Below, piece after piece: positions 47,300 to 63,771 of a stretch of 64,000 nt of DNA. A program made the position numbers and the translations under genes. This DNA is from Bacteroidota bacterium. GTDB taxonomy: Bacteria > Bacteroidota > Ignavibacteria > UBA10030. The stretch spans positions 1,251 to 65,250 of the forward strand of contig JBEKOB010000008.1 of assembly GCA_049522195.1 (NCBI GenBank). The letters are read 5' to 3'. The notes beneath the pieces are model-generated. The model made no database searches. It was not told where the DNA came from and worked only from the letters and a program-made list of their open reading frames with translations. The first letter of the stretch is position 1, and every line of letters starts with the position of its first letter.

Positions 47300-47357
47300 A
47301 CGTGAATGTCAGAGGGGAAATGATCAATCACCGTCATTCACGAACTCTTGAAGGGCA

Positions 47358-50300: not shown

Positions 50301-52616
50301 GGAGCAGTCTTAGTTTCTGTGAGTCCGACGCTAAGCTGGAATGCGTCTGTGGGGGCCACAAGTTACACTCTCCAGGTATCAACGGCCGCAGATTTCTCGG
50401 CACTGATCGTCAACCAGAGCGGCATTACAGGAACCTCGGCGCCCGTCTCCGGATTGTCTAACAGCACGGTGTATTATTGGAGGGTGAGTGCGAGCAATGT
50501 AGGCGGATCGAGTTCATATTCGTCCGCATTTACTTTCACGACTATAATAGCTCCGCCGGCCGCGCCCTCACTCCTTTCGCCCCACGATACGGCAACAGGT
50601 GTCGCGATAAGTCCATCGTTCACATGGAATACTTCTCCGACAGCGACGTCGTACACAATTCAAGTCTCAACGAGCCCGAGTTTCGCGTCCTTTGTCGTCA
50701 ACGTAAGCGGTATCACACCGACTTCGTACAACGCGTTTGGACTGGGCGGCAACGGCACGTTCTATTGGCGCGTGAGTGCAACAAATGCCGGCGGGACGAG
50801 TTCCTTCTCCGCTCCATTTTCGTTTTCAACACTATTGACGGCGCCGTCGGCGCCGACGCTGGTTTCGCCGGCGAACATCGCTACAGGTATTTCGACTAAT
50901 CCGACTCTCAGCTGGAATGCCTCGCCAGCGGCGACGAGCTACTTTTTAGAGGTATCGACCGCTGCCGATTTCTCGGTCCTGATCGTATTCCAACCTAGCA
51001 TTGCGGCCACGTCCTACAATGCGAGCGGGTTGCTCCCGAATACACAATATTATTGGCGCGTAAGCGCCGCGAATACGGCAGGGGGAGGGTCATTCTCGAG
51101 TGCATTTTCATTTACAACAGGAATTGCGCTCGCGGCTCCGACGCTCATCTCGCCTGCGAATGGTGCGACAGGTGTTTTACGGTTTAGTGCGATCTTGATC
51201 TGGCATCCCTCTGCTGGCGCGACGTCGTATAAAGTGCAAGTTTCCCTAACTTCGGACATGTCACTCTTGGTAGTAGATCAGTCAAACATTACCGACACTT
51301 CGTTTACTCTTGGACAATTGGCTCCTGGTACACAATACTACTGGGCAGTGAAGCCAGTAAATGCCGGTGGAGAGGGTGTATCCTCGGCAGTTTATTCGTT
51401 TACAACGATCGTGTCCCTTCCACAGGCTCCAGCGCTCATCTCGCCTTCGAATGGTGCGACTAGCGTTTCGCCGACCAATCCAACGTTAATCTGGCATTCT
51501 TCTGCTGGTGCCACGTCGTATACACTTCTAGTTTCCACAACGGCAAATATGTCAGCCTTGATCGTAAACCAATCCAACATCACTGACACTTCATTCACTC
51601 TGGGAGTATTGAGCCTCGGTGCACAGTTCTACTGGGCCGTAAGGCCAGCGAATGCAAGCGGACAGGGTCCAATCTCCGCTGTCTATTCGTTTACAGTAAT
51701 CACGCCTCCCCAGGCCCCGACGCTGATCTCGCCCGCGAATGGTGCGACCAGTGTTTCGCCGAATAATCCAACGTGGGTCTGGCATTCTGCCGCTGGTGCG
51801 ACGTCGTATACGCTTGCGGTATCCACAAACGCAAACATGACAGACTTGATATTGATCCATCCAAATATCTCCGACACTTCGTTTACTCTCGCAGGATCAT
51901 TGAATTATGGTACACAATACTATTGGGGCGTAAGGCCGGCGAATGCAAGCGGAGAGGGCGTATTCTCTGCTGTCTTTTCGTTTACAACGATCGTTATCCG
52001 TCCACAGGCCCCTCCGACCCTCATCTCGCCTGCGAATGGTGCGATTAGTGTCTCACCTAATAATCCAACATTGGTCTGGCATTCTGTAGCAGGTGCGACG
52101 TCATATACACTTTTGGTTTCCACAACTGCAGACATGTCGGCGTTGATACTAAACCGCCCAAATATCACAGACACTTCGTCTACTCTTGGAGTCTTGAACT
52201 CAGGCACACATTACTACTGGGCTGTGAGGCCGGCGAATGCTGGCGGAGAGGGTGTATTCTCTACGGTGTTTTCCTTCACGACGGCGGGCGCGGCGACACT
52301 GGTCGAGTACATGAAAAGCTCAATTGCCGACAAATACCTGCTGGATCAGAACTATCCGAACCCGTTCAACCCATCCACGATGATACCCTATTCATTACCG
52401 CACAGGAGCGTAGTTCGCGTGTCAGTCTACTCTCTCCTTGGAACCGAGGTTGCGGTGCTTGTCAACGGTGAGCGGTCGGCGGGATCGTACGAAGTGCGGC
52501 TCGATGCAGCCGCATTTCCTTCAGGAGTCTATCTTATAAAAATGCAGGCTTCGCCGCTCGAAGGAGGTACCGGGCAACCGTTTGTTGCCACCAGAAAGGT
52601 TGTCCTGCTCAAGTAG
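47358..52616 (+). CDS. Giant secreted protein: 3 cohesin-like and 2 Big_2-like modules, 11 FN3-like repeats, T9SS sorting domain
   Basis: Signal peptide ending AAAQA, and one uninterrupted 1752-codon ORF. The start lies 58 nt after the previous gene. Confidence 0.85.
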   Translation: MMSHTLRSTLLSIALVVCLVAAAEPAAAQAKLLTVPDTTAKKGDTLLVPLRISSLATLDSVYSGQFTLSYNSGVMYIYDISTAGTLLAGTGNVSFNPTTRQLAFASGTIITGSGPLIYLKVATSASPSSLTDVISVTSAAFNEGTPAITIHNGNFRFRTITISPKTPPGNLVVGDSLQFSVSGDQIPPLTWTSSNPSFATIDANGKLHGVGVGQLTVYVQDSQGLRDSTNLFPINSPLLNSLTLSLHDTSYTQTLTFNLPVYISDVTSLGIISSQFTLTFNSSILQALDVIKAGSMSSTWTAPAYNISGGRIDVALAGSQPLSGSGVLVYVRFKVLPAASGSTTIALSNVLFNETIHASLVNGNFGTIAAPILIIAPATGILTKGDTTTFRVTSGGHPPYSWTSTSPSVATINNTTGLLTAIARGTTTVAVVDSLSFTATSGSIAVNDLRVSLPDTSVNIADSVDVPITTDLLTGLGIYSYDFRLVYDSTVVKIAQVLTAGTLSSGMTIAVRDTVDTLRVGAAGPAPLSGSGTLLKIRFKAAPGVSLSQLSSTRFAFFNFNEPGSGTATATPRNGSITIGNVLPSAPAAPTLLSPTTGATGVAVAPALSWNASTGATSYTLQVSTVANFASTVVNQSGIAATSFSASGLANNTLYYWRVSATNAGGTSAYSTGFSFTTIIAAPPPPSLVSPASASTGVSLTPTLSWNAASTATSYTVQVSTDPAFGSFVINQAGVASTSYVAGGLSGNTTYYWRVSGTNVGGAGNYSSVFNFATGSGAPAAPVLSSPHDTATAIALSPTLSWNAVTGATSYTLQVSTAADFSALVVNQSGIAGVSSSVGPLTATTLYYWRASATNAGGTSAFSSAFRFTTAIAPPAAPTLVSPHDTATGIAVNPTLTWNSSATATSYTVQISTSPTFSSFVVNQNGIATNSYNATGLGGVTLYFWRVSATNAGGSSAFSSTLSFTTTLSPPAAPTLSTPQNGAVLVSVSPTLSWNASVGATSYTLQVSTAADFSALIVNQSGITGTSAPVSGLSNSTVYYWRVSASNVGGSSSYSSAFTFTTIIAPPAAPSLLSPHDTATGVAISPSFTWNTSPTATSYTIQVSTSPSFASFVVNVSGITPTSYNAFGLGGNGTFYWRVSATNAGGTSSFSAPFSFSTLLTAPSAPTLVSPANIATGISTNPTLSWNASPAATSYFLEVSTAADFSVLIVFQPSIAATSYNASGLLPNTQYYWRVSAANTAGGGSFSSAFSFTTGIALAAPTLISPANGATGVLRFSAILIWHPSAGATSYKVQVSLTSDMSLLVVDQSNITDTSFTLGQLAPGTQYYWAVKPVNAGGEGVSSAVYSFTTIVSLPQAPALISPSNGATSVSPTNPTLIWHSSAGATSYTLLVSTTANMSALIVNQSNITDTSFTLGVLSLGAQFYWAVRPANASGQGPISAVYSFTVITPPQAPTLISPANGATSVSPNNPTWVWHSAAGATSYTLAVSTNANMTDLILIHPNISDTSFTLAGSLNYGTQYYWGVRPANASGEGVFSAVFSFTTIVIRPQAPPTLISPANGAISVSPNNPTLVWHSVAGATSYTLLVSTTADMSALILNRPNITDTSSTLGVLNSGTHYYWAVRPANAGGEGVFSTVFSFTTAGAATLVEYMKSSIADKYLLDQNYPNPFNPSTMIPYSLPHRSVVRVSVYSLLGTEVAVLVNGERSAGSYEVRLDAAAFPSGVYLIKMQASPLEGGTGQPFVATRKVVLLK
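47445..49096 (+). other. Three cohesin-like modules (about 47445-47830, 48078-48458, 48701-49096) interleaved with two Big_2-like modules
   Basis: Each cohesin-like unit has G(D)tl.VP(l/i)......l..(i/v)yS.qFtL.Y(n/d)S.v.........G.......... G.l.y(l/v).Fk...... and ends in NGNF/NGSI. The Big_2-like units show G.(s/t)..F.V......(Y/L).WTS(S/T).PSvATI...G.l.a...G...V.V.D. Confidence 0.5.
49107..52284 (+). repeat. Eleven in-frame tandem repeats of about 288 nt (about 96 aa, FN3-like)
   Basis: The repeat unit is P.AP.L.SP..(G/T)AT(G/S)V...P.L.W....GATSYTLQVST...(F/M)S.L(V/I)(V/I)NQS.I..TS....L...T.YYW(R/A)V...NA.G.......F.FTT. Units 1-7 form an SWN/WRVSATNAGG type and units 8-11 an IWHS/WAVRPANA.GEG type. 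Confidence 0.85.
52335..52613 (+). other. T9SS (Por) C-terminal sorting domain
   Basis: YLLDQNYPNPFNPSTMIPYSLP.....VSVYSLLGTEVAVLVNGERSAGSYEVRLDA..FPSGVYLIKM. Confidence 0.8.
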
Positions 52617-52986: not shown

Positions 52987-53052
52987 GGTGAATATCCAAT
53001 GTCGAACGCCCAATAACGAATGATGAAGTGAGTTGTTTGTTCGTCGGGATGA
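52987..53052. repeat. Direct repeat copy B (3' flank plus the last 9 nt of tRNA-Pro)
   Basis: See copy A. It starts ggtgaatatccaatgtcgaa and ends tcgtcgggatga, which overlaps the tRNA acceptor 3' strand. Confidence 0.7.
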
Positions 53053-53118
53053 CAGGATTCGAACCTGCGACCCCCTGCGCCCAAGGCAGGTGCTCTAACC
53101 GGGCTGAGCTACATCCCG
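53044..53118 (-). tRNA. tRNA-Pro: tRNA-Pro (anticodon TGG)
   Basis: The - strand reads CGGGATG TA GCTC AGCCCGGTTA GAGC A CCTGC CTTGGGC GCAGG GGGTC GCAGG TTCGAAT CCTGT CATCCCG A. This is a full cloverleaf with a TTCGAAT T-loop and anticodon loop C-T-TGG-G-C. No CCA is encoded. Confidence 0.9.
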
Positions 53119-54036
53119 AAGAAAATCAAAGGTTTTTCCATCTCGCCGCTCGCAAAAAGCATCAAACTAGGGTAGTCTGTTAGCAGTTTGTTAGCAGCTC
53201 TTCCCTCTTGAACCCACTGCATTCGCTCCCCAAATGGTCATTCTTTACCACCGCTCGTTAGCAACACGTTGGGGAATAGCCTTTGGATCCGTCAGTCGAG
53301 CGTATTGAATGATTTCAGTTGCGCACACAATGTACGGAAGGTTGATCACGGACGCAAGGCGTTCGTAGCGGCCCAAACATTCTGCAGACACGTCGTTCTG
53401 TAGAGGCGGTTCTTCCCGTGTCTCCTCCACCGGCACGTTTCTCTGGACTCAGACTGCAAAATGAATTTCTGCAAGAATCGATTTCCGAGCCCGAAAAGTC
53501 CGAGGGTAGAAAAGGACCGCTTAGAATCAGCTTTTTTCCATCGTTGGTCTGGAACAGCTGTTAGCGAATTGCCCCACTACTAATGGGCGAATTTAGAATC
53601 AACGTACTGATGTCTGTGTTTTCCCCAAGAATTGAACAAACTGAAGACCGAAGTCATTTAGCAAGAATACTAGATCCATGATCTAGTACACAAAAACAAA
53701 AGACCCCTGTAGACAGAGAGGTTTTGAGTTACCAGCGATCCAGATGTCACCAAAAAGTTACAATTCCGCGAAAGCCTCTCTCTCGTTGAAGGTGTGGTCT
53801 TGACAAGCGAGAAAATCTCCTCCTCAATGGCTCGATTACGAGTGTTGTTCCGGGGGTCTCCTGCCTACGTATCCATTAGCCTAGCGCAAATACCCAACGA
53901 GCGGCTCGCAGTAAGTCGGTTCTGATTCGATGCTAAAATCGGTGCTAACTCAAGGAACCGGTGTCCGATACAACGAGAGGTAAGCATCCTTCTGGCGCAA
54001 CCACTCACTCAAGACCGATCAAAGAGTCACCTCACA

Positions 54037-54070
54037 ATCCCCGCACCTGCACCTGCAACCGTGTGGGGAT
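54037..54070 (+). repeat. GC hairpin repeat, copy 1 (upstream of the LuxR-type gene)
   Basis: ATCCCCGCAC-ctgcacctgcaacc-GTGTGGGGAT followed by ttctgtttca. It uses the same stem as copy 2, and its loop carries an extra CCTGCA hexamer. Confidence 0.6.
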
Positions 54071-54110
54071 TTCTGTTTCATGCGGAAGTAACAAATGAGG
54101 AACGAACAAC

Positions 54111-54335
54111 TTGAGACTCAAGACCAAGAAACGATTCTTAGGGAGACCCCCTGCACCGAAAGAGCTTGAGACATGGAGGTTGTTGGCTCAAGGACTCACG
54201 AGTAAGGAAATCGCGAGAAAGCGACGGGTGTCGGTCGGAACTATAGAGACAGTTCGATCAATACTCTTGAGCAAGCTCGGTGCGCGCAACACTCCGACAC
54301 TGATCGCTATGTGGTACAGGCAGGAGAAGAAATGA
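54111..54335 (+). CDS. Stand-alone LuxR/GerE-type HTH protein (74 aa)
   Basis: LETWRLLAQGLTSKEIARKRRVSVGTIETVRSILLSKLGARNTPTLI fits the LuxR C-terminal HTH pattern. TTG start with AGGAA 8 nt upstream; there is an in-frame stop 12 nt upstream of the start. Confidence 0.65.
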   Translation: MRLKTKKRFLGRPPAPKELETWRLLAQGLTSKEIARKRRVSVGTIETVRSILLSKLGARNTPTLIAMWYRQEKK

Positions 54336-54363
54336 GATGCACAAAACCTGATCAGAAATCAAA

Positions 54364-54391
54364 ATCCCCGCACCTGCAACTGTGTGGGGAT
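54364..54391 (+). repeat. GC hairpin repeat, copy 2 (probable terminator of the LuxR-type gene)
   Basis: ATCCCCGCAC-ctgcaact-GTGTGGGGAT followed by tgccgtttca, 29 nt after the stop codon. Confidence 0.6.
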
Positions 54392-54527
54392 TGCCGTTTC
54401 AGGGGGAATGTGAGGCGGGGACGGTGGTGGTGAAGACGGTGGTGAGGAGGGATATCATATCATTCGAGCTTCAGCGGAGGCAGTTTGTACCACTCGAATG
54501 CGATCATAGCGATCCGGGTCGCTCAAA

Positions 54528-55026: not shown

Positions 55027-55407
55027 TCACGGGATACCACCTATTGCGTTTCGCACCGAAGCCAGAATCTCACTTAAACCAGAAGGTTTGAGAATGAAGT
55101 AGAAGGCACCCAAGCGCTTTGCCTCAAGAACCGTTTCCCTGTTCGCATTGCCGGACCAAAAAATAACAGGAGTATCCGCTATGTCTGGATCCGCTTTAAG
55201 TGCCTTAAGGAACTGGAGTCCATCCATGAAGGGTGAGTTGATGTCAGTGATATTCACATCCGCATGGTGTTCTCTGAGCCATGATATTCCAATACTCTTG
55301 GACTCCAATCCGTAGACCTTAAAGCCCGCCTTTTCCAGCTCTTTAATCAGAAGAAGCACAAGATTTTTCTCGTCATCCAGAACCAAAATTACCTTGGGGT
55401 TCATCAC
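55027..55407 (-). CDS. Orphan single-domain response regulator (receiver only)
   Basis: KVILVLDDEKN...DVNITDINSPFMDG...VIFWSG...FILKP: the receiver landmarks DD, D, S/T and K are all present. Confidence 0.75.
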   Translation of the reverse strand: MMNPKVILVLDDEKNLVLLLIKELEKAGFKVYGLESKSIGISWLREHHADVNITDINSPFMDGLQFLKALKADPDIADTPVIFWSGNANRETVLEAKRLGAFYFILKPSGLSEILASVRNAIGGIP

Positions 55408-55458: not shown

Positions 55459-55749
55459 CTACGCCGCCCTGGTAATGTTGATCGAACACCACTGCCCCAC
55501 GGTCATCTCACTTCCGGTGATCTTTGTACCAGCCTGCCTCAAGCATACATGTCGATTCAACGGATCACCCAGCCATTCAAGAACCATCCTGCCATTGATC
55601 TCCGCGTCCGAATGCGTCTTGAATAGGAACGCTTCATCGACATTCGCTGACCAGTTGATGGAGTTGAGATCCCAGAACTCAAAATGGCTCAGGTATTCCT
55701 TGCTGTCGGTGCGGCGCAGGATGGTGTATGTGGTTGGGAGGTGATTCAT
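55459..55749 (-). CDS. Small protein of unknown function (96 aa), paralogue of the 55-codon ORF at 57269..57436
   Basis: AAGGAAGGA lies directly upstream of the ATG. The first about 50 residues align with the other small ORF, and many of the differences are synonymous third-position changes (see findings). Confidence 0.65.
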   Translation of the reverse strand: MNHLPTTYTILRRTDSKEYLSHFEFWDLNSINWSANVDEAFLFKTHSDAEINGRMVLEWLGDPLNRHVCLRQAGTKITGSEMTVGQWCSINITRAA

Positions 55750-55835: not shown

Positions 55836-57272
55836 TCACTTGACAACGACCACACCATCACCATTCCTTATTACTGCGACCGGAGTCCCGCGCACGACAG
55901 CTAGCGTGCACGTGTTGAAATCAATAGATGACTTGTCCGCAGCGTTCGGAATATGGTAGCGATGACTATCTAAGCTGCCCCACACGCTCCATCCGTTTTT
56001 ACGGAGATCGTCGATTTGTTGATTGAAACCAAGCTGAGCTTCAGCCTGAGCTTTCACACCGATATCATCCCAAATGTCGATCCAATCGCGAACACTATCC
56101 AAAAACGAAGCTACTAGCTCAATTTCCGTTTCATTTTTCAACTCTTCATTGAAGATGAGACTAGCTTCGGCGCCGCCAATGATTTTCGCCAGTTGTGATC
56201 CAGAGCCAATGAGCGACAGCCGAGCTGCTTTTAGTGAATGAGATACAGTCTCTAGGATATCAGGTCGGATAACTTTGATTAGCTTCCTGGCGACGACATG
56301 AATTCCATCTTGCCACTTGGCAGCAATTCGATCTGCCAACGGAGGTGAGAAGGCTCTAACCTGTTCGACGTCTACGTTGTGCCAAACTGGAAGTATTAGT
56401 TTCTGACCGTTCGCCTCGCGTTGGGCCAGCCCATCAAGTTCCCGAGTTGGATAGTGCTTACCGAAAAAATGTGGTGAGAGTAATACAATACCAAATTTGC
56501 TGTTGGCAAGTCCTTCGTCGATTTTCTGTCGCAAACTGTCACCTACATTCAGCTCTGTCTGGTCAAACCAAACAGAGATACCCATTCCGCGGAGAAGAAT
56601 AGCCAGTGGAGCGGCTATTACCTCCCGGTCCTCAGATGCATACGAGATGAACGCATCCCACCGAGAGGGTCTGAAAGTTGAATCGAGGACATTGCGAGAT
56701 TCGACCTGCTGAGACTGAGGCTGTTCAAATACCGGTTCGGACCGTGGCTCTAGTTTCTTCTTGATGAAATTCTCCAAGCCATCGTATTGATAGAAGAAAT
56801 CAAATCCAGGCTCTCCTCCAAGGTTGATTTCATATACAAGGTTCTGTTCTTGATCCTTTCCCACCAACACGTGCCAGGTTGGACTCACAAAATCGCGGAC
56901 CAGCTCAAGGATCCGATATTTTTCCTGATCTCCCATGACGTTTTGCGTAGGGAAAGCCGACAATGAGATCTTGTCAACATTGGGGTGCTTCCGCACATAG
57001 TTCTGAATTGCCCTCAAGAGATCGTCCAGAAACTGAATATTGTCATCATCGGGATTGACGTGTGCTAATCCGAGAATAGTGAGGTTTCTTCCCCCTGGAG
57101 CTAGCCTCCAGTCGATTTTGCCCGGATCGAAATCAACAGGGATTTTACCTAACAATTCGGCTTTCAATTCACGCACGGTTCTGGTCTCTTGCTTCCTGAA
57201 TATCTCGTAAAGGGCTTGAAGCCATATTCTCTGTGCGGCATCAATTTTCAGTTGGGGGAGCCTGTACTTCAT
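55836..57272 (-). CDS. TIR-domain protein (478 aa) with unassigned N- and C-terminal domains
   Basis: The central region WDAFISYASEDREVIAAPLAILLRGMGISVWFDQTELNVGDSLRQKIDEGLANSKFGIVLLSPHFFGKHYPTRELDGL (about nt 56283-56657) fits the bacterial TIR_2 pattern, including the conserved Glu. Confidence 0.8.
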   Translation of the reverse strand: MKYRLPQLKIDAAQRIWLQALYEIFRKQETRTVRELKAELLGKIPVDFDPGKIDWRLAPGGRNLTILGLAHVNPDDDNIQFLDDLLRAIQNYVRKHPNVDKISLSAFPTQNVMGDQEKYRILELVRDFVSPTWHVLVGKDQEQNLVYEINLGGEPGFDFFYQYDGLENFIKKKLEPRSEPVFEQPQSQQVESRNVLDSTFRPSRWDAFISYASEDREVIAAPLAILLRGMGISVWFDQTELNVGDSLRQKIDEGLANSKFGIVLLSPHFFGKHYPTRELDGLAQREANGQKLILPVWHNVDVEQVRAFSPPLADRIAAKWQDGIHVVARKLIKVIRPDILETVSHSLKAARLSLIGSGSQLAKIIGGAEASLIFNEELKNETEIELVASFLDSVRDWIDIWDDIGVKAQAEAQLGFNQQIDDLRKNGWSVWGSLDSHRYHIPNAADKSSIDFNTCTLAVVRGTPVAVIRNGDGVVVVK

Positions 57273-57436
57273 TGCAGACCTTTCTTCGTTTTGGACCCAG
57301 CATCAAAGACAATTGCCATGTGATTCACGTGCGCAGACCATTGCAGTGAATTCCGATTCCAGAATTCGAAATGAGTCAGATATTCGTTGGTGTCGGTGCG
57401 GTGGAGGATGATGAATGTCAACTGGAACTCATTCAT
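57269..57436 (-). CDS. Small ORF (55 codons, not in the ORF track), translationally coupled to the TIR gene
   Basis: My translation is MNEFQLTFIILHRTDTNEYLTHFEFWNRNSLQWSAHVNHMAIVFDAGSKTKKGLQ*. Its TGA overlaps the TIR ATG (ATGA at 57269-57272). It is a paralogue of 55459..55749. Confidence 0.6.
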   Translation of the reverse strand: MNEFQLTFIILHRTDTNEYLTHFEFWNRNSLQWSAHVNHMAIVFDAGSKTKKGLQ

Positions 57437-57486: not shown

Positions 57487-57774
57487 TTATAGCAATTTCG
57501 CACGAACAAGACGAGCGACAATTCTGGCAAACTCATCCGCCACTTGTTCCTTCGGAGCGGGATCGTCGGCGACCTTCATCACGATTTCCCACTCAAGGGC
57601 ACGCTTGCCCTTTCCCCAAACTGTTTTGAATCGACCGAGTTCTTTGCCAGCGTTTGGTGATTGGGTTCGCATTGAAGAATTGTCGTCCGCAGCAGATGGG
57701 GCCGCATACTCGGCAACGAGATCTAGCTCATTTCTACCATCGACAAAGGGAAAATCCGCGTTGAGCACGCGCAC
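57487..57774 (-). CDS. Hypothetical protein (95 aa)
   Basis: It is co-directional, lying 43 nt after the HEPN gene and 50 nt before the small ORF. I recognise no motif in it. The antisense + strand ORF 57371..57778 is judged spurious. Confidence 0.4.
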   Translation of the reverse strand: MRVLNADFPFVDGRNELDLVAEYAAPSAADDNSSMRTQSPNAGKELGRFKTVWGKGKRALEWEIVMKVADDPAPKEQVADEFARIVARLVRAKLL

Positions 57775-57817: not shown

Positions 57818-59470
57818 TTAGTAGTATTTCAATTCATCTGGAATATTTCGAGCGAAAAGAGGAATTACTTTCTCCTCACCCAAGATTCTTTCCTTCTTAG
57901 TTTCCTCAATCCAAACGAGATTGACCAAGTAAATTATAGCAGAACGCACGGCTTGAAAGAGATTCAAAGTTACTTCTAACAGTTTATCTTCTGTTATGGC
58001 AAGCTCATGGATATTCGTTTCCTCGTCCTCATCTGAAAACGGAGATGAGATCGGACCCAAGGGAACCACCTGAAGGTATTTGTGTTCCAAATGATTTCGT
58101 ATAATTGAAAGATGGCTGAGATTGCCTTGTTTAGAGTAATCTTGAGCTATATCATACAGGGCTACTAAACCAACATTGGCTTGAATTTCATTCAGTTTGT
58201 TGTTTATGCCTTTTTTGAACTCCAGATCGGCATACCAAATATTTGCGAAATAGATTTTCCCCTTTTGATTCAATTCAAGATATTCATTCAAGAATACCGC
58301 GATCTTATCAAGCGAACTAAACGCCAAACGGTACGAAAATTTCAGCAATTCCTGATAAACATTCATCGAAGCATAATCAAGCGTGTTGATAATCGCAACC
58401 TTGCCGTCTACAAATCTGAGCTTAGGATCTTTGAACTGAGATTGAGTCAACAAGAATCTCGCAGTAGCAAACTCCTGTTTGACTTGGTTAAGATATCGAC
58501 AAAGGCTCAGATATTTGTCTTTCCCCTTTGAGGGCACTAACATCTTTTGAATGACAATCGGATCGCCAACGGAGGCATAGCAGTTGCAATAAAAGCTGTG
58601 GGGATTTAAGTAAAGCCTGTGGTTAAGGCAGAAGTTCACATAGAATGTTTTGAACCGAGACCGATATCTCCTGTGCCATACTCTGACGTGCTCAGTTTTC
58701 TTCCTCAGATTCATCTTGCCCGTCAATGATTTCTTAATCGGCTTCAAATAACTATCCTCAAAGAATCTCCTTGGTGCTTCTTCGATCATTTTAGATTTAC
58801 ACGCGCTCTTTAGCATCCAGTAGGCTTCATAATACAGCTTGGAATAGTACTCTTTTTCTGGTGTGACGTGAGTCAGAAAGCAAAAGACCCTTGCCTTATT
58901 TGCTAAAGCCATCGGATGTTTTGGAGAATGGTAAAGAGCTTTATCATAAAATTCGATTGATTCGAGATTTCTTCCTAGATCGTTGAAACAGTTTCCAAGA
59001 TTTACGTATAGGCGGGCCATCCGCTCGTTGTCAATTTGTGGTCCTTTCTCAGTTAGCAAAGTAGTCGCATGATAGAAACAGTTCTTGGCTTGTTGGATCT
59101 GATTGATTGATACAATTGAGTATTTAAAATCAGGTTCCTGTTTTTCGATTTTGTGCAGGGCAGCAAAACCATTCCCGAGGTCGTACCAATAGGTGAACTC
59201 AAGTTCTTTGCCCTGCGTGAAGATTCTTTCCTTGTTGCTTTCGAGAAACCCGATTCCTTTCCTAACGATAGCCGGATCATTCAATCCGTCGCCAATATCA
59301 ATCAAAAAACCTGCTACGTTTATGAGCACACCTATCTGATGAAGGTCGTACTTTTGATTTATTACCGACAATCCTTCGAACGCTTCTCGATACTTGCCTT
59401 CGCCAATCAGCCGGCTCACTGACCTAAATTCATCAGGATAAAGGAATTGACTCATTTCTTCGGTTACCAT
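57818..59470 (-). CDS. TPR-like N-terminal region fused to a C-terminal HEPN-like domain (Rx4H)
   Basis: TPR-like segments (ARLYVNLGNCFNDLGRNLESIEFYDKALYHSPKHPMALANKA). An RNHLEH motif lies at nt 58082-58099, 87 residues from the C-terminus, in a helical context (LSHLSIIRNHLEHKY). Confidence 0.6.
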   Translation of the reverse strand: MVTEEMSQFLYPDEFRSVSRLIGEGKYREAFEGLSVINQKYDLHQIGVLINVAGFLIDIGDGLNDPAIVRKGIGFLESNKERIFTQGKELEFTYWYDLGNGFAALHKIEKQEPDFKYSIVSINQIQQAKNCFYHATTLLTEKGPQIDNERMARLYVNLGNCFNDLGRNLESIEFYDKALYHSPKHPMALANKARVFCFLTHVTPEKEYYSKLYYEAYWMLKSACKSKMIEEAPRRFFEDSYLKPIKKSLTGKMNLRKKTEHVRVWHRRYRSRFKTFYVNFCLNHRLYLNPHSFYCNCYASVGDPIVIQKMLVPSKGKDKYLSLCRYLNQVKQEFATARFLLTQSQFKDPKLRFVDGKVAIINTLDYASMNVYQELLKFSYRLAFSSLDKIAVFLNEYLELNQKGKIYFANIWYADLEFKKGINNKLNEIQANVGLVALYDIAQDYSKQGNLSHLSIIRNHLEHKYLQVVPLGPISSPFSDEDEETNIHELAITEDKLLEVTLNLFQAVRSAIIYLVNLVWIEETKKERILGEEKVIPLFARNIPDELKYY

Positions 59471-59751
59471 TTCAGCATTTTGGGGCTTTTGCTTTTGACA
59501 ATTCGAACCTCATCCTCAGCAAGTCCGTATAGTTTGTAAACAAGTCTATCAATCTCCCCTATCCATTGCCTTGATCTGGTGCTCCAACAGTTCTTTCTTG
59601 CCATCTGTGGTTGATTCTGTTTACGGTGAGGGTCCGACATTCTCTCGACAAGCTGCGCCATCCGTGGTGCATTGCTTTGTCGTCTGGTGGATTGCAAAAG
59701 GCGATAGTAATTTAGATTTCTGTCTGGTCTTTGTAAGCAGTTTGCATTTGA
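59464..59751 (-). pseudogene. Remnant of the C-terminal tail of an Eco57I/type IIG-like methyltransferase
   Basis: The stop-to-stop frame ends ...MAQLVERM....IGEIDRLVYKLYGLAEDEVRIVKSK, parallel to the tail of the 1015-aa enzyme (HLVGLVEQIM....LDRQIDEAVYELYGLTEEEIKIVEG). No upstream methyltransferase body is present. Confidence 0.55.
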
Positions 59752-59758
59752 TCATACT

Positions 59759-60601
59759 TCACTCTTTCCAAATCATTTCCCCTCTAGCATTCCAGAAAAT
59801 CTCGCCAGGACCCATCCAAGGGAAAAGACCACACTCTTCTAGCTTCAGTAGCACAAATTTGATTGCATCCCCTGGACTTTGCGATAAGGTGCATAAGAAC
59901 CTAGCTCCAGGAAAGTTAGTTGCACAGGCAAAGAACTCAGGCCCGACAATATTCTCATCACCTTTTTTGAAATACAGGGGTGTCAATGCTATGCCAGCAT
60001 CCCCCGTCCGCATCATACCATAAGGGCGGTAATCATTCTTTTGGGGAGCTCTGACATATCTTCTAATCTCAGAATACAAATTAGAGCTGTGATGAGACTT
60101 GGTCTTCTCGATATCATTATTTGTGTCTTTCAACATCTGCCATATTGAGCATTCAAAAGCGATTTTGTGCAAAGCTCGACTTACCTGTGTATGGTTCACA
60201 TTCTTTAGACTTGCGTGCTGTATAGATAGTGTACCATCATTTTTCAATACTACTCGCCCTTCACCTTTGTCGATGCTTAGTAATTTATTCCTCCGAGAAG
60301 TCAACCTTACTGTTTCGTTTTCATAGACAGAAATTGACGAATTATAACTGGGAATGCTTTTCAATGTTTTCCACATCCGTAAAACCGGATGATTAACAAG
60401 ATGAGTATCCAAATGTGAGCCGAAATAGCGGTTGCAACTCCTGCAAATAATTCCTTTGGGGAGGGTATAGGGTGATATAATACGCAGCCTTGGGTCATCG
60501 CTCGTATTCCCAAGCGAAAAAGGGATGATATTATATTCATCGTCAGACTTGCGATCGACCTTCCCTGAACAATACAGGCAGGTGTCTGTTATTAAGTTCA
60601 T
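59759..60601 (-). CDS. HNH_5-like zinc-ribbon endonuclease-fold protein (catalytic His replaced by Tyr)
   Basis: CLYCSGKVDRKSDDEYNIIPFSLGN....ICRSCNRYFGSHLDTHL follows C..C....EH.iP..LGG....vC..CN..f....D, but with EY for EH and GN for GG. About 200 further residues are unassigned. Confidence 0.5.
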   Translation of the reverse strand: MNLITDTCLYCSGKVDRKSDDEYNIIPFSLGNTSDDPRLRIISPYTLPKGIICRSCNRYFGSHLDTHLVNHPVLRMWKTLKSIPSYNSSISVYENETVRLTSRRNKLLSIDKGEGRVVLKNDGTLSIQHASLKNVNHTQVSRALHKIAFECSIWQMLKDTNNDIEKTKSHHSSNLYSEIRRYVRAPQKNDYRPYGMMRTGDAGIALTPLYFKKGDENIVGPEFFACATNFPGARFLCTLSQSPGDAIKFVLLKLEECGLFPWMGPGEIFWNARGEMIWKE

Positions 60602-60723
60602 TCACTTTTCTTTCTCGCTGTCGGCCTTTGTTTGTATGAACTTCAACCGTTGAGCCCGATTGCGCCACATCAGAGATTCTTGACCTTTTGTTTTGTACGA
60701 TCTCCAAGCGTCGTTTTTCGATT

Positions 60724-63700
60724 TCACGTCCTTGAGTCGCCCTCCACAATCTTTATCTCTTCTTCTGTCAACCCATATAACTCATATACAGCTTCATCGA
60801 TCTGACGGTCCAGGCTTTCACACTGCAGTTCGAGCCGATTCTTTTCGGCATCGGTCTTCGCGGTTGAGAGTGTTTCTTCGGAATACATTATCTGCTCGAC
60901 AAGGCCCACTAAGTGATCGTGTTTCGATCTTTGTGATGAATCATCAAAATCAATCATATGTATGGGCAGTTGCTCTGTGTACTTCGTCCAGAAACGAACA
61001 TATCCTCCCCTCAACGCCGTACTGACACGCTTGAGGCACCAGAATAACAACTTGCTGTTTAGCAGGGCAAGAAGGTATTTCGGACTATGCCTGTCATCCT
61101 TTGGAAGTAAGCCATAACCTGTCTTGAAGAAATGTCCATTTGCATCGATCGTGAACGACGCTGTATTGTTATAGTCGGGGACCACGATCTTGGGCCTGGA
61201 AAAGAGAGTCATACTCTTCGGGTAACCAAAGGCATACCAGTTTGGCCCTTTGAATCGCCCACCTTCTCGTTTCATTAGCTTTGTCTTGTTCAACTCCAAA
61301 TACGAATGTGCTTTTGGAAAATCCCTCTTCAGATCAGTTTCTTGAATAAGATTGAACTCAGTATCGCCGATTTGGTAAGGGCAGATCATGACGGAAGAGG
61401 AGTGCAGGGGTCGATATCGACGGATATCCTTTCCCTTCAGGAATCTCTTTACGATCTCTGATTCTACATTCATACGCTGGGTGAGTGATGCCGAATCCCC
61501 TTTCACTATCGATTTACCAAACTCGCAGTTTTCCAAAACGAAGACGTCATCTGCACTCGTTTGGGTTCCTACGAAAATATGGAACACTTCAGACGCGTTT
61601 CGGTTCGTTGATTCGAGTCTGCGAAACAACCTCTCGTCGCCGGCGTCTCCAAATATCCACTGTGTTCCCGAAATTGATTTTTCTTCTATGACAATCTCAT
61701 CCGCCTTCAAGTCCTTCTCCCACGTTTCAATATCCCCAACCTTAGCAAACCTGAATTCCGTATTGTTTCTCTTACTTAGGAAAAGAAGGCAAGTATACGT
61801 TGTCGCACCAACAAACACTTGATTCTCTCCGAAATGAACCACTTTGTCCAAGAACCTCCCGTCTGCGACGATGCGACGAAGTCCTTCACCATATTGAGCA
61901 CTGAAAAATTTGTGCGGCAAAATGAATCCTAAGCTCCCCTCCCAACGCAAAAGGCTGATCCCTCGCTCGACGAAGACAACATATATGTCATAGTTCCCTG
62001 ATGCAGCAGATGCAAAGTGATCTTTGAGATATTTCACAGATTCAGGACTGGACTCATTCATCGTTTGAATTCTTATGTACGGTGGATTCCCCACAATACC
62101 ATCAAAGCCACCCCTCTTGATCACCTTCGGAAACACTTCTCCTGTGTTCATTGGTTTGAGCTTGGAATCATCTACATTCGGGAACAAAGATCCATCGAGA
62201 ATATCCCGCCCGACTAGAGAATTTCCACACACAATATTGTTTTTCAGGTCAGGCAGAATTGTTTCCTTGAACAATCCGAACTGATGGGCATCACTCATCG
62301 TTGCGTCTTCGAGGAGCTTCAGATACAGTGAGAGCTGTGTGACTTCGGTTGCTTGGAAATCGATATCCACACCGTAGATGTTATTGAGTAGGATTTCTTT
62401 CTTCTTTTTCAGCGAAAGATGTAGTTGCCCATCACGCTCAAACAGATCGTCCGTCTTCGCCTTCTCTCGGTTTGCCAGGTAATATCTGACGTGATAATCG
62501 AGCAGTTGAGCGTACACTTCGATCAGGAATGAACCCGATCCGCACGCAATATCTGCAAAAGCCAAATGTGCGATCTCGGCGGGAGTCTTGCCTTCGATCT
62601 GCCTCCCGACTGTTTCCTTTACGATGTAGCGGACGATGTATTCGGGAGTATAGTAGACACCACCTGACTTTCGAACCTCCGGTTTTTCTTCAACCTTCAC
62701 ACGCTTGTCAGTAGCGTGCACCACCTTGCCTAGGAACCTCTCGTAGATGCTGCCAAGAATCGATATCGGAATTTGGTTGAAATCGTATGGGGAACCCGGA
62801 TCGGCCAGCTCCGAACATATCTCTGCGAACATTTTGTCTTCAGTAGTAGCAAATGTGATCTCATCCAGTATGCGATGCGGCTTGAAGACCAACCCGTTGT
62901 ACTTGGGCTCACATCTTTTGCAGAGATTGACAAATCCCTTCCAAGCCGACTTCTGTCCTTTGAGATTGATGATCGCCTTCTCTTCAATACCTTTGTCTTC
63001 GAGGAACCGGATAAACACAAGTCGGTCAATTGTTCGTTGGACGGCCTCGGTGAGTTCTTCTCCTTCCAGCTTTTCATTAGCCTTCTTGAATGCTTTGGCA
63101 AGCGTGATGCGATATTCATCCAGCTCTTCCAGAAATGCTTCATCGACCGCTTGATATCCTCCTTTGAGCAATCCTTTCTGGCCACCCTTGCCACGCGGCT
63201 TTGGCAACTCAGCCGCCCGCTTCTCAATTGAACCACCCGCAACGGCCTCCCGTGAGAACAGATAGTAGACATGGGCGAATTTGTCTTCGACGGCATAGTC
63301 GGAATAATGGAATGACTCCACTTTGCGATTCATCGCTTCGTCGATATCTGGTTTGAACCGGCAGTCCAGAATATGAAATTCTTCGAAGTCTGTTAGTACC
63401 GCAAGCGGAGTTTTTGCATTCCAACCGTAACGGATCGTTTGGTAGTAATCTTCTGCATTTGCAAGGTTCTTCGACGGCTTTTTTGCCTCCACAAAGAATT
63501 TCGGATCTCGGAAATTCGGACTGAGGAAGAATGCGTAGTCAGCTCGCCGCTGGGAAGACCCTGCCATCTTTACCTTGTTCTCAATGTGGACCTCTTGCTC
63601 GTAAGGATTCCTTTGCTGCACGTGTGTGACATCCCATCCCAAAGCAGCGAAGAATTTGTCAATGAAATCCTGACGAACTTGTGACTCTTGATAGCCGGGT

Positions 63701-63771
63701 GAAAGGTAGGCTGCCTCCTGTGCCTTAAAATCAGTCACAAGTTGTTTAATAGTTTCAAAGGACTGCTTCAT
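60724..63771 (-). CDS. Type IIG restriction-modification enzyme (fused PD-(D/E)xK nuclease, gamma-class N6-adenine methyltransferase and target recognition region)
   Basis: The N-terminus has RRADYAFF...KFFVEAKKP (D...ExK). SAM motif I FADIACGSGSFL lies at nt 62527-62553 and motif IV GNPPYI at nt 62077-62088. The long C-terminal region ends in IDEAVYELYGLTEEEIKIVE. Confidence 0.8.
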   Translation of the reverse strand: MKQSFETIKQLVTDFKAQEAAYLSPGYQESQVRQDFIDKFFAALGWDVTHVQQRNPYEQEVHIENKVKMAGSSQRRADYAFFLSPNFRDPKFFVEAKKPSKNLANAEDYYQTIRYGWNAKTPLAVLTDFEEFHILDCRFKPDIDEAMNRKVESFHYSDYAVEDKFAHVYYLFSREAVAGGSIEKRAAELPKPRGKGGQKGLLKGGYQAVDEAFLEELDEYRITLAKAFKKANEKLEGEELTEAVQRTIDRLVFIRFLEDKGIEEKAIINLKGQKSAWKGFVNLCKRCEPKYNGLVFKPHRILDEITFATTEDKMFAEICSELADPGSPYDFNQIPISILGSIYERFLGKVVHATDKRVKVEEKPEVRKSGGVYYTPEYIVRYIVKETVGRQIEGKTPAEIAHLAFADIACGSGSFLIEVYAQLLDYHVRYYLANREKAKTDDLFERDGQLHLSLKKKKEILLNNIYGVDIDFQATEVTQLSLYLKLLEDATMSDAHQFGLFKETILPDLKNNIVCGNSLVGRDILDGSLFPNVDDSKLKPMNTGEVFPKVIKRGGFDGIVGNPPYIRIQTMNESSPESVKYLKDHFASAASGNYDIYVVFVERGISLLRWEGSLGFILPHKFFSAQYGEGLRRIVADGRFLDKVVHFGENQVFVGATTYTCLLFLSKRNNTEFRFAKVGDIETWEKDLKADEIVIEEKSISGTQWIFGDAGDERLFRRLESTNRNASEVFHIFVGTQTSADDVFVLENCEFGKSIVKGDSASLTQRMNVESEIVKRFLKGKDIRRYRPLHSSSVMICPYQIGDTEFNLIQETDLKRDFPKAHSYLELNKTKLMKREGGRFKGPNWYAFGYPKSMTLFSRPKIVVPDYNNTASFTIDANGHFFKTGYGLLPKDDRHSPKYLLALLNSKLLFWCLKRVSTALRGGYVRFWTKYTEQLPIHMIDFDDSSQRSKHDHLVGLVEQIMYSEETLSTAKTDAEKNRLELQCESLDRQIDEAVYELYGLTEEEIKIVEGDSRT

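What the first reader, a model, noticed from the sequence alone, without database searches (positions are those of the whole stretch)
55836..57272. TIR domain embedded between two unrecognisable domains
The TIR fold (with the conserved Glu in YPTRELDG) occupies only residues about 206-330 of 478. The about 200-aa N-terminal and about 150-aa C-terminal regions show no motif I can place. They contain no STAND/NACHT ATPase, SIR2, SLOG, Macro, STING, TPR or TM segments. Known bacterial TIR systems (Thoeris ThsB with ThsA, TIR-STING CBASS, TIR-APAZ/pAgo, TIR-NLR-like Avs) each need a recognisable partner, and none of these partners is present in this window.
Basis: partly seen in the sequence, partly recalled or inferred. 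Interest (0 to 1): 0.65.

Follow-up and report, generated by a model that had tools for sequence, protein, structure and literature searches.

The report
Lone three-domain TIR defence protein
This gene encodes an apparently intact NAD-cleaving TIR enzyme, of the kind bacteria use to shut down phage-infected cells. It sits between two conserved but undescribed domains and has no partner gene, so it is most likely a new variant of the known single-protein TIR defences.

Summary
Window 55836-57272 (-) encodes a 478-aa protein whose residues 204-335 form a TcpB/AbTir-class TIR domain. The catalytic Glu (E278), the BB loop and the aromatic cyclisation residue (Y274) are all in place.

Both flanking regions are absent from Pfam, NCBIfam, PHROGs and PADLOC. 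Both fold confidently (pLDDT about 92) into shapes with no match among solved structures. But each belongs to a conserved family.

- **C-terminal domain:** TIR plus this domain forms a stand-alone protein of about 280 aa, seen in over 100 clusters from several phyla, with no conserved neighbour gene.
- **N-terminal domain:** it recurs in 272 representative clusters. It always sits just before enzymes such as TIR, TIR-like and deoxyribosyltransferase-like domains, KAP NTPases and cyclases.
- **This protein:** it is a one-off fusion of the two families, found in one organism only. It lies in a low-GC defence island with a Type IIG RM enzyme and a TPR-HEPN protein.

Best reading (inferred, not shown): a self-contained abortive-infection NADase, switched on when its accessory domains cluster the TIR domains. 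Of the flanking small ORFs, one is a scar and the other a backbone gene.

The parts
55836..57272 (-). Whole gene: 478-aa protein made of N-terminal domain, linker, TIR and C-terminal domain (stop codon 55836-55838)
   Evidence: ORF list. The identical protein sits on 21 contigs, all with the same gene context. There is one 90% cluster with 3 members.
56739..57272 (-). N-terminal domain, residues 1-~178: a helical half carrying the invariant W17 and G68, then a winged-helix-like half
   Evidence: An exhaustive phmmer search gave 272 representatives at E<=1e-3 and 54 at E<=1e-10. AF2 pLDDT is 91.9. The best Foldseek PDB hit has E 0.07 and TM<=0.28, and the recognisable weak hits are mostly winged-helix proteins. 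No library family covers it.
56664..56738 (-). Linker, residues 179-203 (EPRSEPVFEQPQSQQ...), predicted flexible
   Evidence: pLDDT falls to 56-69 after residue 180. The linker motif is shared with the closest N-domain relatives, up to the point where their own effector domain starts.
56268..56663 (-). TIR domain, residues 204-335, TcpB/AbTir class
   Evidence: Pfam TIR_2 4e-19. PDB matches 4lzp 3e-39, 8g83 3e-36 and 3h16 1.5e-33. PADLOC PDC-S66 9.8e-51, covering the TIR part only.
56439..56441 (-). Codon of the catalytic Glu E278 (GAA), equivalent to AbTir E208. Y274 is the equivalent of W204 and G244-R248 of the BB loop.
   Evidence: Residue-by-residue alignment, numbering and sequence. The role of these residues in AbTir is described in 10.1101/2022.05.07.491051.
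55839..56267 (-). C-terminal domain, residues 336-478: three short strands alternating with two short helices, a long helical hairpin with the acidic-aromatic motif DWIDIWDD, then a four-stranded antiparallel sheet
   Evidence: It aligns at 43-56% identity, together with the TIR, to over 100 clusters of ~280-aa proteins. AF2 pLDDT is 91.8. No fold match in PDB or BFVD. No profile match in PDB. It was found only next to TIR.
57327..57436 (-). Upstream copy of a 110-nt imperfect direct repeat. It forms the first 38 codons of the 55-aa ORF 57269-57436, whose stop overlaps the TIR ATG by 4 nt.
   Evidence: Repeat family D1, 72% identity, spacing 1687 nt. The protein-level match is 58% over 38 aa. 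The remaining 17 codons match nothing.
55459..55749 (-). 96-aa conserved small gene downstream of the TIR gene. Its first 110 nt (55640-55749) are the second repeat copy.
   Evidence: Seven metagenome loci carry full-length homologues at 65-81% identity. These sit beside different upstream genes.
57818..63771 (-). Rest of the defence island upstream: TPR-HEPN_LA2681 (57818-59470), HNH_5-like protein (59759-60601) and Type IIG restriction-modification enzyme (60724-63771)
   Evidence: Pfam HEPN_LA2681 4e-47 and Eco57I 4e-40. PADLOC REase_MTase_IIG 2e-246. GC is 42-47% here against 50-55% elsewhere.

Best explanation
This is a self-contained, single-polypeptide anti-phage (abortive-infection) NADase.

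**Effector.** The TIR domain (residues 204-335) is of the TcpB/AbTir class and has every residue known to be needed for NAD+ cleavage. Such TIR domains are active only when two or more pack head to tail, because the active site forms between neighbouring domains.

**Resting state (inferred).** In uninfected cells the protein is held in a non-productive state.

**Trigger (inferred).** An infection cue, either a multimeric phage protein or a nucleic acid, is bound by the N-terminal helical and winged-helix module. That module is joined to the TIR by a flexible linker. Binding clusters the TIR domains. NAD+ is then hydrolysed to nicotinamide plus ADPR or a cyclic ADPR isomer (the aromatic Y274 is compatible with cyclisation). 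The cell is depleted of NAD+ and phage replication stops.

**C-terminal domain (inferred).** It always accompanies this TIR subclade and has no catalytic-looking signature. It most likely sets the resting oligomeric state (dimerisation or auto-inhibition) or acts as a second recognition surface.

**Shown here:** the domain anatomy, conservation of the catalytic residues, the modularity of both accessory domains, the absence of a conserved partner, and the island context.

**Inferred only:** NADase activity, the nature of the trigger, clustering, and the role of each accessory domain.
For: **TIR class and residues.** The TIR matches solved TcpB, AbTir and PdTIR domains at E 1e-33 to 1e-39. E278, Y274, the GDSLR BB loop, K272 and S210 align with AbTir E208, W204, G174-R178, K202 and S143 (residue roles).

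**No partner.**
- In 13 loci of TIR+CTD homologues plus the window, an all-against-all comparison of neighbours shares only the TIR-CTD gene itself. The exceptions are antisense shadow ORFs and one ORF pair shared by two loci (contexts).
- No second copy of the N-domain lies in the 64-kb window or near other N-domain genes.
- Rfam finds no RNA partner.

**Sensor-swap pattern.**
- Relatives of the TIR+CTD core carry unrelated N-terminal domains at the same position: AbiJ_NTD4 and DUF2513.
- The window's N-domain is found just before Nuc_deoxyrib_tr-like domains (22 of 116), TIR_2 (11), KAP NTPases (11), CAP12/PycTIR (3), class III cyclases (3), DUF4062 (2), GGDEF and a kinase.
- From general knowledge, these are mostly enzymes that need dimerisation or oligomerisation to work.
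- The N-domain plus linker aligns up to the exact residue where relatives begin their NDT-like domain and this protein begins its TIR.

**Defence context.**
- The gene lies in a low-GC island with a Type IIG RM enzyme, an HNH-like protein and a TPR-HEPN protein, about 2.3 kb beyond a tRNA-Pro gene from the island's last gene.
- One homologue directly follows Gabija, and another locus holds a Type III RM system.

**Precedents.**
- SpbK has an N-terminal domain, a linker and a TIR, and is activated when the phage portal clusters it.
- E. coli has single-protein TIR systems.
- Swarozyc is a portal-activated TIR-like NADase.
Against: - There are no functional data of any kind for this protein, for either accessory family, or for any close relative. 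No RNA run was available to show expression.
- Several TIR+CTD homologues sit among ordinary metabolic genes rather than in defence islands. The defence association is therefore only moderate.
- The closest solved TIRs (TcpB, and the TIR proteins of Acinetobacter and Paracoccus) are best known as host-directed or uncharacterised proteins, not as proven phage defences.
- The N-domain's partners are strongly biased towards N-glycosidase-type domains. That could mean a shared small-molecule or substrate link rather than phage sensing.
- Some N-domain proteins have a further domain upstream, including one weak PUA-like hit. The N-domain may therefore be a transducer rather than the primary sensor.
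Confidence: 0.55

Rival explanations
1. It is a Thoeris-like signal generator. The TIR makes a cyclic ADPR isomer or another ADPR-derived messenger, and that messenger activates an effector encoded elsewhere in the genome.
For: An aromatic residue (Y274) sits at the position needed for cyclisation in AbTir-type TIRs. PADLOC ThsB models match the TIR part at 1e-27. The SpbK authors leave the same possibility open for N1-cADPR.
Against: No ThsA, SIR2, Macro, SLOG, SLATT or caspase-like gene is in the window. No gene is conserved next to TIR+CTD homologues in 13 loci. In all described Thoeris types the TIR gene and its effector share an operon.
Confidence: 0.13
2. The N-terminal domain is a homotypic adaptor, like the effector-associated domains of NTPase-centred conflict systems. 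It would dock the TIR protein onto a KAP or STAND NTPase that carries the same domain and is encoded elsewhere. The NTPase would be the true sensor.
For: The same domain occurs both in short effector proteins and inside 600-1200-aa KAP-NTPase or NPHP3_N/TPR proteins. That is the distribution expected of an adaptor.
Against: An HMM of the domain finds no second copy in the 64-kb window or within 5 kb of five other N-domain genes. Their neighbourhoods share nothing. In the NTPase proteins the domain is fused in cis, directly before the NTPase. That fits an input or transducer module equally well.
Confidence: 0.12
3. It is not a defence gene. It would be a TcpB/BtpA-like effector aimed at eukaryotic hosts or competitors, or a housekeeping NAD or NAD-capped-RNA processing enzyme, with the winged-helix part binding nucleic acid.
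For: The closest solved relatives include Brucella TcpB/BtpA. AbTir-class TIRs can decap NAD-RNA (PMC10937652, abstract listed). Some TIR+CTD homologues have metabolic neighbours such as HIT, NUDIX and flavodoxin-like genes.
Against: The protein is found only in environmental metagenome assemblies. It has no signal peptide or TM segment. It lies in a low-GC RM/HEPN island. The mix-and-match of sensor-like and toxic domains is typical of conflict systems.
Confidence: 0.1
4. It is a toxin-antitoxin-like module in which the overlapping 55-aa ORF and/or the 96-aa ORF neutralises the TIR protein.
For: The 55-aa ORF ends 4 nt inside the TIR gene (ATGA overlap), an arrangement typical of coupled genes. 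The two small ORFs are paralogous.
Against: The 55-aa ORF is only the first 38 codons of a 96-aa-type gene plus 17 unrelated codons, and it occurs only in this organism. The 96-aa gene sits next to unrelated upstream genes in 7 other contigs. None of the TIR+CTD or N-domain loci examined encodes a similar peptide.
Confidence: 0.05

Closest known systems
SpbK of Bacillus subtilis ICEBs1 (single-gene TIR NADase activated by the SPbeta portal YonE; PMC12847820)
   Same: One protein, with no partner gene. A non-TIR recognition domain is joined to a catalytic TIR by a flexible linker. The proposed logic is the same: the accessory domain clusters the TIR domains so that the BE-interface active site forms, and NAD+ is depleted.
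   Different: SpbK's accessory domain is a 94-residue four-helix bundle and it has no C-terminal domain. Here there is a ~178-residue helical and winged-helix domain plus a 143-residue C-terminal domain. No SpbK chain appeared among PDB sequence matches at E<=1, so the TIRs are not close relatives. The trigger here is unknown.
AbTir / TcpB (BtpA) / PdTIR class of bacterial TIR proteins (PDB 8g83, 7uwg, 4lzp, 4c7m, 3h16)
   Same: The TIR domains match at E 1e-33 to 1e-39. The BB loop GDSLR is identical, the catalytic Glu is the same, and an aromatic residue sits four positions before it. AbTir makes 2'cADPR and is active only as a two-stranded assembly.
   Different: From general knowledge, those proteins have a coiled-coil N-terminal region and end with the TIR. 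Here the TIR is internal, the N-terminal domain is unrelated to theirs, and there is an extra C-terminal domain. Position 207 (Y in AbTir) is R here, as in TcpB.
The ~280-aa TIR+CTD proteins (unnamed; e.g. P0002-P0111; in Longimicrobium terrae, Hymenobacter, Geobacter hydrogenophilus, Latescibacterota, Anaerolineaceae)
   Same: They are true homologues over residues 205-478 (43-56% identity). All are solitary genes.
   Different: They lack the N-terminal domain. A few carry AbiJ_NTD4 or DUF2513 instead. None has been studied, so the family gives no functional information.
E. coli single-protein TIR defence systems TIR-II, V, VI and IX (Wang et al. 2024, PMC11350192) and PADLOC candidate PDC-S66
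   Same: These are TIR proteins that protect against phages without a partner and need the catalytic TIR residue. PDC-S66 is the best PADLOC match (9.8e-51).
   Different: The PDC-S66 match covers only profile positions 136-263 of 282, which is the TIR. TIR-V, VI and IX are described as short TIR-only proteins.
N-domain fusions to NDT-like, PycTIR-like and DUF4062 domains (e.g. P0121-P0125; compare Swarozyc DUF4062 NADases, bioRxiv 10.64898/2026.05.01.722283)
   Same: They share the same N-terminal domain and linker (31-47% identity), followed by an N-glycosidase-type effector of the broad TIR-like kind.
   Different: Their effector is not a canonical TIR, and none has the C-terminal domain. 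The link to Swarozyc rests only on 2 of 116 N-domain proteins having DUF4062.

Membership tests
TIR-domain NADase (AbTir/TcpB class) | TIR fold detected by sequence | tested here: met
   PF13676 4e-19 (69.7 bits against a cut-off of 28). PDB TIR chains at 1e-33 to 1e-39 over residues 193-335.
TIR-domain NADase (AbTir/TcpB class) | Catalytic glutamate in the alpha-C region (AbTir E208) | tested here: met
   E278 aligns with AbTir E208 and the TcpB Glu. E208A is inactive in AbTir.
TIR-domain NADase (AbTir/TcpB class) | Intact BB loop (AbTir G174 and S176 are essential) and an aromatic residue at the W204 position | tested here: met
   G244-D-S-L-R248 is identical to AbTir. Y274 sits at the W204 position; Y is seen in 2 of 12 cyclising TIRs.
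TIR-domain NADase (AbTir/TcpB class) | NAD+ cleavage that depends on self-association | not testable with these tools
   Needs an enzyme assay.
Thoeris (ThsB TIR plus ThsA effector) | An effector gene (SIR2-SLOG, Macro-TM or caspase-like) in the same operon | tested here: not met
   None in the island or in the rest of the window. None is conserved beside homologues.
Thoeris (ThsB TIR plus ThsA effector) | ThsB-type TIR protein | tested here: inconclusive
   PADLOC ThsB1 models match at 1e-27 and 6.5e-18, but only over the TIR part. NCBIfam Thoeris type III ThcB4 scores 17.7 bits against a cut-off of 220.
PADLOC candidate PDC-S66 | Match over the whole 282-position profile | tested here: not met
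   Only profile positions 136-263 match, corresponding to residues 192-319.
Retron / RT-TIR (type XII) | Reverse-transcriptase domain and ncRNA | tested here: not met
   NCBIfam Retron_TIR scores 79 bits against a cut-off of 600, TIR part only. No RT domain. No RNA family other than the tRNA-Pro gene.
CBASS/Pycsar TIR effectors (TIR-SAVED, TIR-STING, PycTIR) | A nucleotide-sensing SAVED or STING domain, or a cyclase gene | tested here: not met
   SAVED_TIR models match only residues 206-301. There is no cyclase or CD-NTase in the window.
SPARTA (TIR-APAZ plus short pAgo) and Avs / TIR-NLR | An APAZ domain with a pAgo gene, or a STAND NTPase with repeats in the same protein | tested here: not met
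   No such Pfam or PADLOC hit in the protein or the window. The neighbouring TPR-HEPN gene has no NTPase.
SpbK-type single-protein TIR defence | Single gene, with an accessory domain, linker and TIR, and no partner | tested here: met
   Architecture. Solitary gene.
SpbK-type single-protein TIR defence | Homology to SpbK itself, and activation by a phage portal | tested here: inconclusive
   No SpbK chain appeared among PDB matches at E<=1, but I did not verify that the entry is in the copy searched. Activation cannot be tested here.
TIR+CTD ~280-aa family (unnamed) | A contiguous TIR and C-terminal domain alignable end to end | tested here: met
   43-56% identity over residues 205-478 to more than 100 clusters.

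The most novel reading that the evidence does not exclude
The N-terminal domain is a previously undescribed, widespread proximity switch. It would bind an infection cue and multimerise, turning on whichever oligomerisation-dependent enzyme follows it (TIR, NDT-like, PycTIR, DUF4062, cyclase or KAP NTPase). The C-terminal domain would be a new fold that gates TcpB-class TIRs. The window protein, which carries both, would then be a two-input TIR NADase.
Probability: 0.3. Interest if true: 0.65.

Novelty: new variant of a known kind. Interest (0 to 1): 0.45.

Why it matters
**Single-protein TIR defences.** Single-protein TIR NADases are emerging as a common form of bacterial immunity, but how each recognises infection is known for only a few. 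This locus points to two conserved accessory domains that have no description and no solved structural relative.

**The N-terminal domain.** It is shared among many different effector classes, so it could be a reusable input module. Working it out would explain activation for a whole set of uncharacterised TIR, TIR-like and deoxyribosyltransferase-like proteins.

**The TIR+CTD family.** It offers a compact two-domain system for asking how TcpB/AbTir-class TIRs are kept silent. That question is also relevant to the pathogen proteins of this class.

**The hotspot.** The variable site next to the 96-aa gene could be mined for further defence genes.

Tried and rejected
- **Word-indexed homology search with the N-terminal 203 aa:** nothing. 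The exhaustive search was needed.
- **One combined alignment of full-length protein, TIR+CTD homologues and N-domain fragments:** MAFFT misplaced the fragments onto the TIR. I modelled the two flanking domains separately, so there is no model of how the domains are arranged.
- **Fold searches:** N-domain against PDB, and C-terminal domain against PDB and BFVD. No hit better than E 0.07 or TM 0.33.
- **Profile searches against PDB sequences:** nothing significant.
- **hhalign of the N-domain against the DUF2513 and AbiJ_NTD4 N-termini of relatives:** no relation.
- **tblastn of either flanking domain against GenBank phages and PLSDB plasmids:** no match.
- **IMG/VR scans:** none.
- **C-terminal-domain profile search for non-TIR contexts:** only 10 proteins, all with TIR. 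Sensitivity was clearly limited.
- **Conserved partner search:** neighbour clustering, a second N-domain copy, a small-ORF homologue beside relatives, and Rfam. All negative.
- **Which repeat copy is the resident one:** identities to seven homologues do not discriminate.
- **RNA-seq runs for expression:** none available.
- **Sigma-70 promoter and terminator scan:** uninformative.
- **Rejected:** membership of Thoeris, CBASS/Pycsar, SPARTA, Avs, retron-TIR and PDC-S66 (see the membership table). A toxin-antitoxin reading of the small ORFs is judged unlikely rather than excluded (rival 4, confidence 0.05).
Full report
**1. The observation**

Window 55836-57272 (minus strand) is an ATG-initiated ORF of 478 aa. 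Pfam places a TIR domain at residues 208-302 (TIR_2, 4e-19). Solved bacterial TIR domains align over residues 193-335:
- Brucella TcpB/BtpA: 4lzp 3e-39, 4c7m, 4lqc
- Acinetobacter AbTir: 8g83 3e-36, 7uwg
- Paracoccus PdTIR: 3h16 1.5e-33

In the residue-level alignment the Glu of YPTRELDG is E278 and pairs with AbTir E208. Y274 pairs with W204. G244-D-S-L-R248 is identical to the AbTir BB loop G174-R178. K272 and S210 pair with K202 and S143. In AbTir, E208A, G174A and S176A abolish or nearly abolish activity, and the W204 position must be aromatic for cyclisation (10.1101/2022.05.07.491051). The catalytic Glu is therefore neither absent nor misaligned.

Residues 1-203 and 336-478 give no hit at E<=0.1 in Pfam, PADLOC, NCBIfam or PHROGs, apart from two sub-threshold chance-level hits. 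There is no TM segment. The best PADLOC hit, candidate PDC-S66 (9.8e-51), covers only the TIR part of its profile.

**2. The C-terminal domain belongs to a family**

A search of 5.8 billion protein clusters returned over 100 clusters of ~280-aa proteins. They align to residues 205-478, which is TIR plus C-terminal domain, at 43-56% identity. TIR+CTD is therefore a conserved two-domain core.

A scan of one genome per species found it in Latescibacterota, Anaerolineaceae, Geobacter hydrogenophilus, Hymenobacter aranciens, Longimicrobiales and Palauibacter. One search adds Longimicrobium terrae.

An AF2 model of residues 332-478 is confident (pLDDT 91.8). It shows three short strands alternating with two short helices, a long helical hairpin carrying the conserved acidic-aromatic motif DWxDIWxD, and a four-stranded antiparallel sheet. 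Foldseek finds nothing comparable in the PDB or BFVD (best E 0.07, TM at most 0.33). A profile search of PDB sequences also finds nothing significant. A profile search with the domain alone recovered only TIR-bearing proteins.

A few family members carry an extra N-terminal domain, either AbiJ_NTD4 or DUF2513. Neither is related to the window's N-terminal domain.

**3. The N-terminal domain also belongs to a family**

The word-indexed search found nothing. An exhaustive phmmer search of 1.84 billion representatives found 272 proteins at E<=1e-3 and 54 at E<=1e-10.

The AF2 model is confident (pLDDT 91.9). It has a helical half with the invariant W17 and G68, then a winged-helix-like half. pLDDT falls after residue 180, marking a flexible linker. 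The best Foldseek PDB hit has E 0.07 and TM<=0.28. The recognisable weak hits are mostly winged-helix proteins (MarR, PadR, TFE and the N-terminal domains of O-methyltransferases).

Of 149 listed hits, 113 have the domain at the N-terminus and 36 have it internally. Pfam on 116 of them shows what follows it:
- Nuc_deoxyrib_tr-like: 22
- TIR_2: 11
- KAP NTPase: 11
- CAP12/PycTIR: 3
- Class III cyclase: 3
- DUF4062: 2
- NPHP3_N/TPR: 2
- GGDEF, protein kinase, Hypoth_Ymh, Schlafen AlbA_2 and SieB: 1 each

The closest relatives (P0121-P0125, 31-47% identity) align through the linker motif FEPxxxPxFExPQ. They diverge exactly where they begin an NDT-like domain (PNTAFILM...) and the window protein begins its TIR (WDAFISYASED). 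This is a clean effector swap.

No N-domain protein other than the window's has the C-terminal domain. The full three-domain protein exists in a single 90% cluster. All 21 contigs that carry it show the same gene context. The gene is thus a one-off fusion of two families.

**4. Partners and context**

The gene lies in a stretch of 42-47% GC, against 50-55% elsewhere in the window. Upstream on the same strand are a Type IIG restriction-modification enzyme (PADLOC 2e-246), an HNH_5-like protein and a TPR-HEPN_LA2681 protein. A tRNA-Pro gene lies at 53043-53118.

The other 28 large ORFs of the window are housekeeping genes: permeases, H+-pyrophosphatase, AcrB, a sigma-54 activator and others. None resembles ThsA, SIR2, Macro, SLOG, STING, SAVED, pAgo or a STAND NTPase. 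Rfam finds only the tRNA.

Across 13 loci of TIR+CTD homologues plus the window, an all-against-all comparison of neighbouring ORFs shares only the TIR+CTD gene itself. The exceptions are antisense shadow ORFs and one ORF pair shared by two loci. One homologue directly follows Gabija and another locus has a Type III RM system. Several others sit among ordinary genes.

Neighbourhoods of five N-domain genes share nothing. An HMM of the N-domain finds no second copy in the window or in those loci. Neither flanking domain occurs in GenBank phages, PLSDB plasmids or IMG/VR contigs at the sensitivity used.

**5. The small flanking ORFs**

A 110-nt imperfect direct repeat (72% identity; 55640-55749 and 57327-57436; spacing 1687 nt) brackets the TIR gene. 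Each copy starts at the ATG of a small ORF.

The downstream 96-aa ORF is a real gene. Seven other metagenome contigs encode full-length homologues at 65-81% identity. In those contigs it is followed by the same HNH-like 170-aa gene as in the window. It is preceded by different genes: Type ISP RM plus an AAA ATPase, a ThsB_TIR plus SLATT pair, and a 374-aa protein with an RxxxxH motif.

The upstream 55-aa ORF has only the first 38 codons of such a gene, then 17 unrelated codons that run 4 nt into the TIR start. I read it as a recombination scar at a variable hotspot, not as a partner. Which copy is the resident one could not be decided.

**6. Mechanism**

- **Established knowledge.** TIR NADases form their active site between two TIR domains packed head to tail, and they are silent until accessory domains raise their local concentration.
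- **Shown here.** The catalytic machinery is intact. Two confidently folded accessory domains are present, and the N-terminal one is joined to the TIR by a flexible linker. Both accessory positions are evolutionarily swappable. The N-domain's partner domains are mostly enzymes that, from general knowledge, need dimerisation or oligomerisation (TIR, NDT-like, GGDEF, class III cyclases, kinases). No partner gene was found.
- **Inferred.** The N-domain binds an infection cue (a multimeric phage protein or nucleic acid) and clusters the protein. The C-terminal domain sets the resting dimer or auto-inhibited state, or adds a second recognition surface. Activation depletes NAD+, possibly producing a cADPR isomer. 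The result is abortive infection.

I give this reading 0.55. The rivals are:
- a signal generator with an unlinked effector (0.13)
- the N-domain as a homotypic adaptor to a KAP or STAND NTPase encoded elsewhere (0.12)
- a non-defence role (0.10)
- a toxin-antitoxin pair with the small ORFs (0.05)

**7. Comparison with known systems**

It works most like SpbK (PMC12847820) and the single-protein E. coli TIR systems (PMC11350192). Its TIR belongs to the AbTir/TcpB class. It fails the defining features of Thoeris, CBASS/Pycsar TIR effectors, SPARTA, Avs/TIR-NLR, retron-TIR and PDC-S66 (see the membership table).

The statement that the flanks match no described architecture stands.

**8. Verdict**

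The feature is real and correctly described. It is a new variant of a known kind: a single-protein TIR defence that combines two undescribed, structurally orphan accessory domains in a unique fusion. Interest is moderate (0.45). TIR proteins with unknown sensor domains are common, but the N-domain's wide reuse before oligomerisation-dependent enzymes is a testable lead. Nothing here is experimentally supported.

Noticed in passing
window 55640-55749 and 57327-57436: A 110-nt imperfect direct repeat (72% identity, spacing 1687 nt) brackets the TIR gene. Each copy is the first 38 codons of a small ORF, so the TIR gene looks like a ~1.7-kb cassette inserted at a recombination hotspot.
   Followed up: partly
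window 55459-55749 (-); L028-L034: The 96-aa ORF is a conserved small gene of unknown function (65-81% identity in 7 other contigs). It is always followed by the HNH-like 170-aa gene and preceded by different, mostly defence-type genes: Type ISP RM plus AAA (L029), ThsB_TIR plus SLATT (L034), and a 374-aa RxxxxH-motif protein (L032). This looks like a variable defence hotspot.
   Followed up: partly
window 55027-55407 (-): A stand-alone response-regulator receiver gene lies between the 96-aa gene and the HNH-like 170-aa gene in the window. It is absent from that position in L028, L030, L032 and L033, where the two genes abut.
   Followed up: no
window 57818-59470 (-): A 550-aa protein with one TPR repeat and a C-terminal LA2681-like HEPN domain (4e-47). 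It has no PADLOC hit. It is probably a separate single-gene RNase-type defence candidate.
   Followed up: no
window 59759-63771 (-): A Type IIG restriction-modification enzyme (1015 aa, PADLOC 2e-246) is followed by a 280-aa protein with a weak N-terminal HNH_5 match. GC drops to 42-47% across 56-64 kb.
   Followed up: no
window 57487-57774 (-): A 95-aa ORF between the HEPN gene and the 55-aa ORF. It was called as a gene on many contigs of the same organism, but has no family hit and no homologue in the loci fetched.
   Followed up: no
window 54032-54087 and 54359-54408: Two ~50-nt direct repeats (86-92% identity, about 325 nt apart) lie on either side of a small LuxR/GerE-type HTH gene (54111-54335).
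   Followed up: no
window 41636-52616 (+): Two very large secreted proteins (1887 and 1752 aa). They carry beta-helix, cohesin or Ig-like domains and many fn3-like repeats. The second has a Por_Secre_tail (type IX secretion) sorting domain, which points to an FCB-group-like organism.
   Followed up: no
L010 5438-5719: In Longimicrobium terrae a 93-aa TIR fragment gene lies directly upstream of the TIR+CTD gene. It may be the remnant of a tandem duplication.
   Followed up: no
P0143, P0166, P0213, P0216; P0145 and 10 other KAP-NTPase proteins: Some N-domain proteins have a further region before the N-domain. One group has a weak PUA_3-like hit (E 0.003). Eleven KAP-NTPase proteins share an unknown 330-470-aa region. 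The N-domain may therefore act as a transducer between an upstream reader and the downstream enzyme.
   Followed up: partly
L013 1975-5990; L014 1466-9824: The closest N-domain relative, P0121, directly follows a 1007-aa TrwB/DUF87-type ATPase gene (3-nt gap). P0122 sits inside a run of five same-strand genes with no family hits, including a 1265-aa protein.
   Followed up: no
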